Positions 16,755 to 34,223 of a DNA stretch of 64,000 nt are shown in pieces. Under the pieces are notes generated by a model that saw only the letters and a list, made by a program, of their open reading frames with translations, was not told the DNA's origin and ran no database searches. The DNA is from the human T2T-CHM13v2.0 reference genome, Homo sapiens: the NCBI RefSeq assembly GCF_009914755.1, contig NC_060947.1. One strand, given 5' to 3'. Within the stretch, counting starts at the first letter, position 1. Every line of letters begins with the position of its first letter. The position numbers and the translations under genes are program-made.

Positions 16755-16932
16755 ACAGTGATTAAGAACATCAGCCCTCGAGCCAGATTAACTGGGTTCT
16801 GCCATTTATTAACTGTGTGAACTTTGGGAGGTTATTTCACCTGTCTGAATTTCAGTTTCCTTGTCTGTAATATGAAGATACTGATAATATCTACTTTATA
16901 GTGTTTTTATGAAGTGTAAAAGAGTGAATCTG
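16755..16932 (+). mobile_element. MIR, 5' portion, interrupted by an L1
   Basis: MIR core (ctgtgtgaactttgggaggttatttcacctgtctgaatttcagtttccttgtctgtaa) ends abruptly at the L1 boundary. Confidence 0.75.
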
Positions 16933-19200
16933 TTTAAAGTAGTTTTTTCCAATTCTGTGAAGAAAGTCATTGGTAGCTTGATGGGGATGGCATTGAATCT
17001 ATAAATTACCTTGGGCAGTATGGCCATTTTCACGATATTGATTCTTCCTACCCATTAGCATGGAATGTTCTTCCATTTGTTTTTATCCTCTTTTATTTCC
17101 TTGAGCAGTGGTTTGTAGTTCTCCTTGAAGAAGTCCTTCACATCCCTTGTAAGCTGGATTCCTAGGTATTTTATTCTCTTTGAAGCAATTGTGAATGGGA
17201 GTTCACTCATGATTTGGCTCTCTGTTTGTCTGTTATTTGTGTATAAGAATGCTTGTGATTTTTACACATTGCTTTTGTATTCTGAGACTTTGCTGAAGTT
17301 GCCTATCAGCTTAAGGAGATTTTGGGCTGAGACAATGGGGTTTTCTAGATATACAATCATGTCATCTGCAAACAGGGACAATTTAACTTCCTCTTTTCCT
17401 AATTGAATGCCCTTTATTTCCTTCTCCTGCCTGATTGCCCTGGCCAGAACTTCCAACACTATGTTGAATAGGAGTGGTGAGAGAGGGCATCCCTGTCTTG
17501 TGCCAGTTTTCAAAGGGAATGCTTCCAGTTTTTGTCCATTCAGTATGATACTGGCTGTGGGTTTGTCATAGATAGCTCTTATTATTTTGAGATACATCCC
17601 ATCAATACCTAATTTATTGAGAGTTTTTAGCATGAAGGGTTGTTGAATTTTGTCAAAGGCCTTTTCTGCATCTATTGAGAAAGTTCATATGGAACCAAAA
17701 AAGAGCCCGCATTGCCAAGTCAATCCTAAGCCAAAAGAACAAAACTGGAAGCATCACGCTACCTGACTTCAAACTATACTACAAGGCTACAGTAACCAAA
17801 ACAGCATGGTACTGGTACCAAAACAGAGATATAGATCAATGGAACAGAACAGAGCCCTCAGAAATAATGCTGTATATCTACAACCATCTGATCTTTGACA
17901 AACCTGACAAAAACAAGCAATGGGGAAAGGATTCCCTATTTAATAAATGGTGCTGGGAAAACTGGCTAGCCATATGTAGAAAGCTGAAACTGGATCCCTT
18001 CCTTACACCTTATACAAAAATTAATTCAAGATGGATTAAAGACTTACATGTTAGACCTAAAACCATAAAAACCCTAGAAGAAAACCTAGGCAATACCATT
18101 CAGGACATAGGCATGGGCAAGGACTTCATGTCTAAAACACCAAAAGCAATGGCAACAAAAGCCAAAACAGACAAATGGGATCTAATTAAACTAAAGAGCT
18201 TCTGCACAGCAAAAGAAACTACCATCAGGGCGAACAGGCAACCTACAGAATGGGAGAAAATTTTTGCAATCTACTCATCTGACAAAGGGCTAATATCCAG
18301 AATCTACAATGAACTCAAACAAATTGACAAGAAAAAAACAAACAACCCCATCAAAAAGTGGGCAAAGGATATGAACAGACACTTCTCAAAAGAAGACATT
18401 TATGCAGCCAAAAGACATATGAAAAAATGCTCATCATCACTGGCCATCAGAGAAATGCAAATCAAAACCACAATGGGATACCATCTCACACCAGTTAGAA
18501 TGGCAATCATTAAAAAGTCAGGAAACAACAGGTGCTGGAGAGGATGTGGAGAAATAGGAACACTTTTACACTGTTGGTGGGACTGGAAACTAGTTCAACC
18601 ATTGTGGAAGTCAGTGTGGCGATTCCTCAGGGATCTAGAACTAGAAATACCATTTGACCCAGCAATCCCATTACTGGGTATATACCCAAAGGATTATAAA
18701 TGATGCTGCTATAAAGACACATGCGCATGTATGTTTATTGCGGCACTATTCACAATAGCAAAGACTTGGAACCAACCCAAATGTCCAACAATGATAGACT
18801 GGATGAAGAAAATGTGGCACATATACACTATGGAATACTATGCAGCCATAAAAAAGGATGAGTTCATTTCTTTGTAGGGACATGGATGAAGCTGGAAACC
18901 ATCATTCTTAGCAAACTATCACAAGGACAAAAAACCAAACACCGCATGTTCTCACTCATAGGTGGGAATTGAACAATGAGAACACATGGACACAGGAAGG
19001 GGAACATCACACACTGGGGCCTGTTGTGGGGTGGGGGGAGGGGGGAGGGATAGCATTAGGAGATATACTTAATGCTAAATGATGAGTTAATGGGTGCAGC
19101 ACACCAACATGGCACATGTATACATATGTAACAAACCTGCACATTGTGCACATGTACCCTAAAACTTAAAGTATATTAATAAAAAATAAAAATAAAAAAA
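16933..19200 (+). mobile_element. 5'-truncated, 5'-inverted L1PA (twin-priming type): 16933-17680 minus, 17680-19200 plus with poly(A)
   Basis: ORF2 RT-region peptide on the minus strand (17262..17633) abuts the ORF2 C-terminal peptide on the plus strand (17675..18703). 3' UTR and A-tail end at ~19200. Confidence 0.95.
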
Positions 19201-19677
19201 AGAAAAACTGCAAGATGAAAACTGTCAACAAATTCCATCCACATCCTCCCCTATCCCCAGCAAATCCCTCCCTGCCCCACCACCCAAGAAAACCTGGAAA
19301 GAAAAAAGCTTATCCAATTCTGCTCTCTACCCATATAATTCACATATTCATAATATGTAAAAAAAATTTTGCCTTTCCCCATTTAATAAATGATGCGTGA
19401 TATTTACTTTATGCCTAAAAAAGCATCATTTGTCAATAAAGAAATTTTTAAAGCACCCATCCTATATGAGTTGGCAGCTGATTAGGTTAAACTGGCTGGA
19501 TTAAAAACATCACTGGACTCAACAAGTTATAAAATGTGAATATGTTCGTTATATTTACTCTCAATAAAATGATAGGCTCAACACTGTTAGACCTAGCATA
19601 TATTTACTGAGATACTATGTTTTTGGAAATAATCAAATTGTCAACTTACACTTGTTGATAACTTTTAAATGGGGAAG

Positions 19678-34000: not shown

Positions 34001-34065
34001 TCTGCGTCGCTCATGCTGGGAGCTGTAGACTGGAGCTGTTCCTATTCGGCCATCTTGGCTCCACC
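28060..34065 (-). mobile_element. Near full-length L1PA (about PA3-PA5), inactive
   Basis: 5' UTR begins GGTGGAGCCAAGATGG at 34065. ORF1 33054-32038 has a premature stop. ORF2 from 31974 ([19 protein letters not shown] endonuclease; FADD RT) is broken by stops, frameshifts and a ~115-bp deletion near 28895. Confidence 0.97.
33630..33956 (+). other. L1 antisense ORF0 homologue (108 aa, C-terminally extended)
   Basis: MAGTPPPAWLPPCSLISDCFASNERGSLGIGPSNSGAGYNLLV...IRVGVTRFSRC matches the primate L1 ORF0 pattern. Donor-like sites at 33736 and 33821. Confidence 0.75.
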
Positions 34066-34223
34066 ACAGTTTTCTTCTGAGATGTTTTTTGCTTATTGAT
34101 TATTAGTAGTTATTTTAAAACTTCCTAATTTTTATCTTTTGTACTTCTACAATGTGGCAAATATTTTTGAGGTTGTTGTTTGCATTTTACATATGTTTAT
34201 GTTCTTTAAAATCTCTGTTAAAT

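What the first reader, a model, noticed from the sequence alone, without database searches (positions are those of the whole stretch)
16918..34076. Swapped target-site duplications suggest an L1-L1 inversion of the ~9-12 kb between two opposed L1PAs
Seen: neither L1 has a TSD at its own 3' end. The 5' flank of L1-A (aaaagagtgaatct, 16918-16931) reappears, with 1 mismatch in 14, after the A-tail of the OTHER element (minus strand aaaaaagtgaatct, ending 28052). The 5' flank of L1-B (minus strand aagaaaactg, 34076-34067) reappears after the tail at 19200 (aagaaaaactg). The MIR cut at 16932 resumes in reverse orientation at 28051-28004, and the old L1M-like text right of 34077 plausibly continues at 19211. 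Known: inverted L1 pairs are substrates for non-allelic recombination. Inference: a crossover within 17680-19200 / 28060-29440 flipped the intervening block (NUMT, LTR, transduction, KRT8 and ZNF relics) 5-17 kb upstream of ALAS2. It could be lineage-specific, polymorphic or recurrent.
Basis: partly seen in the sequence, partly recalled or inferred. Interest (0 to 1): 0.85.

Follow-up and report, generated by a model that had tools for sequence, protein, structure and literature searches.

The report
L1-mediated inversion upstream of ALAS2
Two oppositely oriented L1 retrotransposons upstream of ALAS2 have exchanged their ends, which shows that the roughly 9-12 kb between them was flipped by recombination, an ordinary and well-described kind of primate genome rearrangement.

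Summary
L1-A (16932-19200, +) and L1-B (28060-34065, -) have no target-site duplication (TSD) of their own, and each one's 5' flank recurs after the other's A-tail. GTGAATCT is an 8-nt exact match at offset 0. GAAAACTG(T) is 7-9 nt exact. A MIR cut at 16931 resumes on the opposite strand at 28051. Joining the two halves extends the MIR alignment across the junction in 6 of 27 genomic MIR copies. Joining the present neighbours does so in 0 of 27.

Recombination between the inverted arms 17678-19199 and 28060-29439 (95-97% identical) flipped 8.9-11.8 kb after both L1s had inserted.

New points:
- L1-A is itself a twin-primed insertion; 16933-17680 is inverted L1 sequence.
- The crossover cannot be placed.
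- The claimed continuation of an old L1 from 34077 to 19211 is not supported.
- The listed block contents were not confirmed.

The mechanism is known as retrotransposon recombination-mediated inversion (Lee 2008), and L1-flanked polymorphic inversions are also described (Porubsky preprint). Lineage, age and polymorphism are untestable here: there are no primate or other human assemblies, and paper supplements are closed. Interest is modest.

The parts
16795..16931 (+). Left (5') part of an old MIR-type repeat, cut by the insertion of the ancestral element E1
   Evidence: at least 40 dispersed genomic matches at 72-87% identity, reaching query position 150 of 152; alignments start at about 16795 and run to the junction.
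16918..16931 (+). TSD1, 5' copy (AAAAGA + exact core GTGAATCT at 16924-16931)
   Evidence: text; 8-nt exact match at offset 0/0 with the flank after the L1-B tail.
16933..17680 (-). L1-A inverted segment, L1 positions about 3883-4630 in L1-B coordinates; the twin-priming 5' piece of E1
   Evidence: aligns in reverse to L1-B, 97.3% over 748 nt; junction text.
17678..19200 (+). L1-A direct segment (L1 about 4628-6007) with a patterned A-tail; the left recombination arm
   Evidence: arms I1-I3, 95-97%.
19201..19225 (+). TSD2, 3' copy: two adjacent candidates, AGAAAAACTG at 19201-19210 and AGATGAAAACTGT at 19213-19225
   Evidence: text.
19201..28059 (.). Non-L1 block that is now inverted relative to its ancestral orientation (8,859 bp; the whole flipped segment is up to 17678-29439, 11,762 bp)
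   Evidence: Inference from the swapped TSDs and the split MIR.
27979..28051 (-). Right (3') part of the same MIR, now on the opposite strand
   Evidence: alignments to 6 of 27 MIR copies continue across the in-silico junction for 32-74 nt.
28052..28059 (-). TSD1, 3' copy (GTGAATCT directly after the 9-A tail of L1-B)
28060..34065 (-). L1-B, full-length L1PA-type element; its 3' part 28060-29439 is the right recombination arm. Three private deletions (11, about 103 and 11 nt) lie in that arm.
   Evidence: 5' UTR hits start at query position 2.
34066..34078 (-). TSD2, 5' copy (AGAAGAAAACTGT on the minus strand)
   Evidence: text.
18514..18653 (+). Longest tract still identical between the arms (140 nt; partner 28580-28719), a weak a-priori candidate for the exchange site

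Best explanation
Two L1PA-type elements inserted independently into this interval upstream of ALAS2.

- E1 was a 5'-truncated, twin-primed insertion of about 2.3 kb into a MIR, at the target AAAAGAGTGAATCT.
- E2 was a full-length element on the opposite strand, at the target A(G)AAGAAAACTG(T).
- The direct 3' part of E1 and the 3' part of E2 formed a 1.4-kb inverted repeat about 9 kb apart.
- A later intrachromosomal homologous exchange within these arms (17678-19199 / 28060-29439) flipped everything between the crossover points, 8.9 to 11.8 kb.

Today's L1-A is therefore the E1 head plus the E2 tail, and L1-B is the E2 head plus the E1 tail. Each 5' TSD now faces the other element's 3' TSD, and the two MIR halves lie 11 kb apart on opposite strands.

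Shown: the swapped TSDs, the split MIR, the twin-primed structure and the inverted homology. Inferred: that the exchange was homologous, its position, and its date.
For: - TSDs: trans matches of 8 nt exact (offset 0/0) and of 7-9 nt exact; cis matches none of 4 nt or more. The null frequencies are 0.075% and 0.42% of 40,000 random flanks each. Both TSDs begin A-rich, as L1 endonuclease targets do (the target preference is recalled).
- MIR: the in-silico join extends the MIR alignment in 6 of 27 copies, against 0 of 27 for the present neighbours. Only 2 of 400 random joins reach 5 or more loci, and both are Alu artefacts. The alignments are collinear across the junction.
- Homology: the arms are collinear in L1 coordinates right up to both tails and 95-97% identical, with no scar or foreign insert.
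- Two separate insertions: L1-A and L1-B overlap over 2.1 kb and differ by 20 of 748 and about 54 of 1380 substitutions.
- Twin priming of E1: it reads as the reverse complement of L1 3883-4630 followed by L1 4628-6007, with a 3-nt overlap.
- The mechanism and the TSD test are described in Lee et al. 2008 (PMC2603318; abstract, sections 6, 7 and 19 read).
Against: - Chimerism of the two L1s, a defining consequence, could not be demonstrated. Private-mutation loads show no clear switch along the arms. L1-B runs 1.4-1.5% upstream, then 2.8%, 1.1% and 2.7% along the arm. L1-A runs 0.7%, then 0.9%, 1.0% and 2.0%.
- Both elements hit largely the same genomic relatives.
- The second TSD is short and A-rich, has two candidate copies, and needs an indel or a 16-nt offset.
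- The second empty site has no repeat to bridge it.
- No outgroup or second human assembly was available, so the ancestral orientation rests on internal logic alone.
Confidence: 0.88

Rival explanations
1. The inversion is real and its breakpoints lie in the two L1s, but it arose by non-homologous or replication-based repair (end joining or template switching) rather than by homologous exchange.
For: The crossover could not be located and no chimerism was shown. Lee et al. 2008 attribute many human-chimpanzee inversions to L1/Alu 'fragile sites' rather than to recombination (abstract).
Against: Both elements are collinear with L1 through the arms, with no junction scar, filler or loss at non-homologous positions. 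Two random breaks would rarely fall at equivalent L1 positions.
Confidence: 0.04
2. There was no inversion. The trans TSD matches are chance, and 27979-28051 is an independent MIR fragment.
For: The TSD cores are short (8 and 7-9 nt) and lie next to A-runs. The MIR extension adds only 3-14 bits per copy, at about 65-69% identity.
Against: Three independent coincidences would be needed: null frequencies of 0.075% and 0.42% for the TSDs, and at most 2 of 400 for the MIR join. Both elements would also have to lack any cis TSD.
Confidence: 0.03
3. The orientation of the block is an assembly error between the two L1 arms.
For: Inverted repeats can mislead assemblers. Only one assembly was seen here.
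Against: The arms are only about 1.4 kb and differ at about 4% of sites, plus indels of 11, 103 and 11 nt. That is far below the read lengths used for a telomere-to-telomere assembly (recalled). An assembly flip would also not be expected to leave exactly swapped TSDs unless the other orientation were the true one, which would still mean two orientations worth checking.
Confidence: 0.02
4. A single complex L1 integration event (twin priming with distant nicks) inverted the target DNA and left L1 sequence at both ends.
For: L1-A carries a twin-priming signature. L1 integration is reported to cause rearrangements (bioRxiv 10.1101/2024.12.14.628481, search listing only).
Against: There are two different endonuclease-type target sites, each duplicated. 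The two L1s overlap over 2.1 kb and differ at 2.7-3.9% of sites. One of them is full length with its own 5' end.
Confidence: 0.02

Closest known systems
Retrotransposon recombination-mediated inversion, L1-RMI (Lee, Han, Meyer, Kim, Batzer 2008, PMC2603318)
   Same: An inverted pair of L1PA elements sits at the breakpoints, and the TSDs no longer match within an element but match across elements. [quoted passage not shown]
   Different: Those 21 L1-RMIs were defined by human-chimpanzee comparison with a known pre-inversion state. Here the ancestral state is inferred from one genome only, and one partner is a twin-primed element.
L1-flanked polymorphic balanced inversions in humans (Porubsky et al., bioRxiv 10.1101/2021.12.20.472354; HsInv0341 with L1PA3 arms in Aguado et al. 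2014, PMC3961182)
   Same: These are also NAHR-type inversions flanked by inverted L1 pairs. There are 22 such inversions, with median pair identity 97.2% and median size 5.6 kb, and most have at least one truncated element (passages). HsInv0341 has 6.2-kb L1PA3 arms (table passage).
   Different: No evidence was obtained that the present inversion is polymorphic. Its arms are short (about 1.4 kb), and it is not among the X-linked inversions in the main-text table of PMC3961182.
Twin priming of L1 (Ostertag and Kazazian 2001, recalled; mentioned in the PMC2837659 abstract and the Porubsky preprint)
   Same: L1-A has an inverted 5' piece joined to a direct 3' piece at nearly the same L1 coordinate, with a 3-nt overlap.
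   Different: Twin priming explains only the 748-nt internal inversion of L1-A. It does not explain the 9-12 kb block or the swapped TSDs.

Membership tests
L1 recombination-mediated inversion (RRMI / L1-RMI) | Two elements of the same retrotransposon family, in opposite orientation, span the two breakpoints | tested here: met
   arms 17748-19183 and 28060-29382, 95-97% complementary.
L1 recombination-mediated inversion (RRMI / L1-RMI) | TSDs do not match within an element but match between the two elements | tested here: met
   trans matches of 8 and 7-9 nt exact; no cis match of 4 nt or more.
L1 recombination-mediated inversion (RRMI / L1-RMI) | Both elements are chimeras, the front of one joined to the back of the other, with a definable exchange point | tested here: inconclusive
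   among 24 (16 upstream) related genomic copies there are no diagnostic differences and no clear switch in private-mutation load.
L1 recombination-mediated inversion (RRMI / L1-RMI) | Flanking unique or old-repeat sequence is restored by re-inversion | tested here: met
   The MIR is restored at the E1 site. The E2 site is uninformative.
L1 recombination-mediated inversion (RRMI / L1-RMI) | The pre-inversion arrangement is present in an outgroup or another haplotype | not testable with these tools
   No primate or second human assembly is held. The flanks are single copy in this genome.
Twin-primed L1 insertion (L1-A / ancestral E1) | Inverted 5' segment next to a direct 3' segment with an A-tail, joined at nearly contiguous L1 coordinates | tested here: met
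   reverse complement of L1 3883-4630, then L1 4628-6007, with a 3-nt overlap.
Twin-primed L1 insertion (L1-A / ancestral E1) | One TSD pair flanks the whole composite | tested here: met
   Met only after conceptual re-inversion: the left copy is at 16924-16931 and the right copy at 28052-28059, behind the tail now attached to L1-B.
Recurrent ('toggling') or polymorphic inversion | Long, highly identical inverted repeats and both orientations segregating | tested here: not met
   The arms are about 1.4 kb and 95-97% identical, and the longest identical tract is 140 nt. The population state is not testable here.

The most novel reading that the evidence does not exclude
The inversion is specific to the human lineage, or still segregates or recurs in humans. 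It would then change the order and orientation of 9-12 kb lying 5.6-17.3 kb upstream of the ALAS2 promoter, inside an intron of the long PAGE2B transcripts, with an effect on erythroid ALAS2 regulation or on local X-linked haplotype structure.
Probability: 0.1. Interest if true: 0.5.

Novelty: new member of a known kind. Interest (0 to 1): 0.3.

Why it matters
This is a clean single-genome example of how swapped TSDs and a split older repeat can reveal an L1-L1 inversion without any outgroup. It places a balanced rearrangement 5.6-17.3 kb upstream of ALAS2, a disease gene. No annotated exon or RefSeq functional element lies in the flipped block according to the hub's table, so a functional effect is not expected. 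Its value is as a catalogue entry and as a possible phylogenetic or population marker if it proves lineage-specific or polymorphic.

Tried and rejected
- **Second empty site.** 34067-34420 and 19201-19560 were searched in the genome and compared with L1-B at DNA and protein level. 34221-34655 is an older L1 3' end (+, 78% to L1-B 5577-6000). 19201-19560 is single copy. The only L1-like piece in 19201-21300 is 20490-20598 (+).
- **Direct genome search with the right MIR half.** The reverse complement of 27880-28051 found only itself. Continuity had to be tested by local alignment to fetched MIR copies instead.
- **Locating the crossover**. Of 29 non-self loci, I dropped L045 (L1-B itself) and L046, L055, L056 and L059 (rearranged or truncated 3' parts), leaving 24. 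For the upstream region, 16 of the 24 were kept (more than 1300 aligned sites and more than 93% identity). There was no clear switch, and most A/B differences are private to one copy.
- **Apparent identity contrast.** 97.3% for the inverted piece against 93-95% for the arms suggested gene conversion. It is mostly due to indels. Substitutions are 20 of 748 against about 54 of 1380, so the idea was rejected as unsupported.
- **Block contents.** Pfam on 23 of 48 stop-to-stop ORFs of 55 aa or more gave only a sub-threshold RVT_1 match (23194-23457) and a weak DUF5317 match. Rfam gave 0 matches in 16000-35000. NUMT, KRT8 and ZNF relics were not confirmed, but the test is weak for decayed pseudogenes.
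- **Literature for this locus.** Searches and passages gave no main-text record.
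Full report
**What is there.** I read the four junctions directly.
- L1-A occupies 16932-19200 on the + strand and ends in a patterned A-tail.
- L1-B occupies 28060-34065 on the - strand. 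It is full length (about 6.0 kb) and ends in a 9-A tail at 28060-28068.
- A BLAST of L1-A against L1-B shows that L1-A is composite.
  - 16933-17680 is L1 sequence in the minus orientation (L1-B coordinates about 3883-4630; 97.3% over 748 nt).
  - 17678-19186 is in the plus orientation (about 4628-6007).
  - The two pieces meet at nearly the same L1 coordinate, with a 3-nt 'aaa' overlap.
- This is the geometry of a twin-primed L1 insertion. The name and model are recalled from Ostertag and Kazazian 2001. Twin priming is also mentioned in the abstract of PMC2837659 (listing) and in the Porubsky preprint.
- As a result, only 17678-19199 is in inverted orientation relative to L1-B (28060-29439). 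The repeat finder gives three collinear arms of 487, 404 and 314 nt at 96, 97 and 95%.

**The target-site duplications.** In the sense orientation of each element I compared the last 30 nt before the 5' junction with the 40 nt after the tail.
- The cis pairs (A5/A3 and B5/B3) have no anchored exact match of 4 nt or more.
- A5/B3 share GTGAATCT, 8 nt, with offset 0 at both junctions.
- B5/A3 share AAAACTG, 7 nt.
- Against 40,000 random 30-mers from the window, with 3 nt of slack on each side, a match at least as long occurred in 0.075% (8 nt or more against B3) and 0.42% (7 nt or more against A3).
- Genomic 5' UTR hits start at query position 2, which puts the L1-B start at 34065. The flank then ends in ...GAAAACTGT, and an exact 9-mer recurs at 19217-19225.
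- There are thus two adjacent candidate copies of the second TSD: 19201-19210 with one indel, and 19213-19225 with one mismatch in 13. Either way the 5' flank motif of L1-B sits just behind the tail of L1-A.
- Both TSDs begin A-rich after a T or G, as L1 endonuclease targets usually do (preference recalled).

**The split MIR.**
- 16780-16931 hits at least 40 dispersed copies at 72-87% identity, with coverage reaching query position 150 of 152. An old interspersed repeat therefore runs right up to the L1-A junction.
- I fetched 27 such copies. In a script I joined 16700-16931 to the reverse complement of 27850-28051.
- The alignment then runs more than 25 nt past the junction in 6 of 27 copies (L002, L006, L008, L018, L026, L029), for a summed gain of 41.5 bits.
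- With the present right-hand neighbours (19201 or 19212) it does so in 0 of 27.
- Of 400 random joins, 287 extended in 0 loci, 85 in 1, 18 in 2, 7 in 3, 1 in 4, 1 in 5 and 1 in 7. The last two are stretches from masked Alu-like intervals with gains of 463 and 852 bits, meaning matches to Alus in the locus flanks.
- The printed alignments are collinear across the join. They show the ...CACATAG.AAGC... block that the genomic copies carry downstream of the part present at 16795-16931. From memory this is the MIR 3' region.

**What it means.** Two different target sites are each duplicated, and the copies are exchanged between two opposed L1s. An older repeat is split between the same two junctions in opposite orientation. 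Together these are what an inversion with one breakpoint in each L1 predicts, provided it occurred after both insertions.
- The elements stay collinear with L1 through the arms, with no scar or filler. Homologous exchange between the arms is therefore the simplest mechanism.
- The flipped segment is at least 19201-28059 (8,859 bp) and at most 17678-29439 (11,762 bp). That lies 5.6-17.3 kb upstream of the ALAS2 start at 12103.
- The ancestral layout was: MIR-left, TSD1, twin-primed E1 with a short tail, TSD1, MIR-right, the block in the other orientation, TSD2, then E2 (full length, minus strand) and TSD2.

**What could not be shown.** The two elements should be chimeras. I aligned L1-A, L1-B and 24 related genomic copies.
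- These 24 come from the 29 non-self loci. I dropped L1-B itself and four copies with rearranged or truncated 3' parts, identified.
- Nearly all A/B differences are private to one copy.
- L1-B carries three private deletions in the arm, of 11, about 103 and 11 nt.
- Private substitution loads for L1-B are about 1.4% upstream (20 of 1469 sites, 16 of 24 copies usable) and 1.5% at L1 3883-4630. Along the arm they are 2.8%, 1.1% and 2.7%.
- For L1-A the loads are 0.7%, then 0.9%, 1.0% and 2.0% (my tally). There is no clear switch, so the crossover is not located.
- The longest tract still identical is 140 nt (18514-18653 / 28580-28719). This is only a weak prior for the exchange site.
- The two elements hit largely the same relatives, so subfamily markers do not help.

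**Age.**
- L1-A and L1-B differ at 2.7% (20 of 748) and about 3.9% (about 54 of 1380) of aligned sites.
- Their best ORF2 relatives are 97-98% identical.
- The best relatives of the L1-B 5' UTR are 91-93% identical and contiguous over 900 nt.
- With recalled L1PA ages (Khan, Smit and Boissinot 2006), this suggests L1PA3-L1PA5-like elements, roughly 10-20 million years old. The inversion would then be younger than that and confined to apes.
- This is inference. No subfamily library was available.

- The old L1 to the right of L1-B is a + strand 3' end at 34221-34655 (78% to L1-B 5577-6000). It is a high-copy family. Nothing at 19201-20489 resembles L1, and 19201-19560 is single copy. 'Continues at 19211' is therefore not supported.
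Both are weak tests.

**Comparison with what is known.**
- Lee et al. 2008 (PMC2603318; abstract and sections 6, 7 and 19 read) describe this mechanism as retrotransposon recombination-mediated inversion. They use non-matching TSDs to call the derived state. They report 49 loci between human and chimpanzee, of which 21 are L1-mediated and more than half of those exceed 10 kb.
- The Porubsky et al. preprint (10.1101/2021.12.20.472354; passages) reports 22 polymorphic human inversions flanked by inverted L1 pairs, with median identity 97.2% and median size 5.6 kb.
- Aguado et al. 2014 (PMC3961182; table passage) list an inversion with L1PA3 arms. None of their X-linked inversions is at this position.
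- Searches for this locus and passages in PMC6748972 and PMC13629690 gave no main-text record.

**Verdict.** This is a new or uncatalogued member of a well-known class, so interest is modest (0.3). It would rise if the inversion proves human-specific or polymorphic.

Noticed in passing
window 16933-17680 / 17678-19200: L1-A is a textbook twin-primed insertion. The inverted 748-nt piece and the direct 1.5-kb piece meet at the same L1 coordinate with a 3-nt overlap and 1 nt of microhomology at the inner junction.
   Followed up: yes
window 28060-29439 (L1-B arm): L1-B carries three deletions (11, about 103 and 11 nt) that are absent from L1-A and from all 28 panel copies compared. The 103-nt deletion removes part of ORF2.
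   Followed up: partly
window 21255-21717: A further L1 3'-end fragment lies on the minus strand inside the flipped block; 21412-21586 is 93% complementary to 18870-19044 (I9). It forms a second, shorter inverted repeat with L1-A, 2.4 kb away.
   Followed up: no
window 23088-24324: Old L1 ORF2-like pieces on the + strand, 73-76% to L1-B (I4, I5, I8, I13). A sub-threshold RVT_1 match lies at 23194-23457.
   Followed up: no
window 34221-34655: The 3' end of an older L1 on the + strand lies directly right of L1-B, 78% to L1-B. Its best genomic copies are 90-93% identical, and there were 2629 first-look candidates.
   Followed up: partly
window 19201-19229: There is a tandem near-duplicate of the TSD2 motif, AGAAAAACTGCA followed by AGATGAAAACTGTCA, directly after the L1-A tail. 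It may be a small duplication at the integration site or chance.
   Followed up: no
window 22202-22471 / 23534-23803 and 23626-23816 / 27220-27410: Inverted pairs at 83-90% lie inside the block, within intervals the hub lists as masked. They are probably Alu pairs (I7, I10).
   Followed up: no
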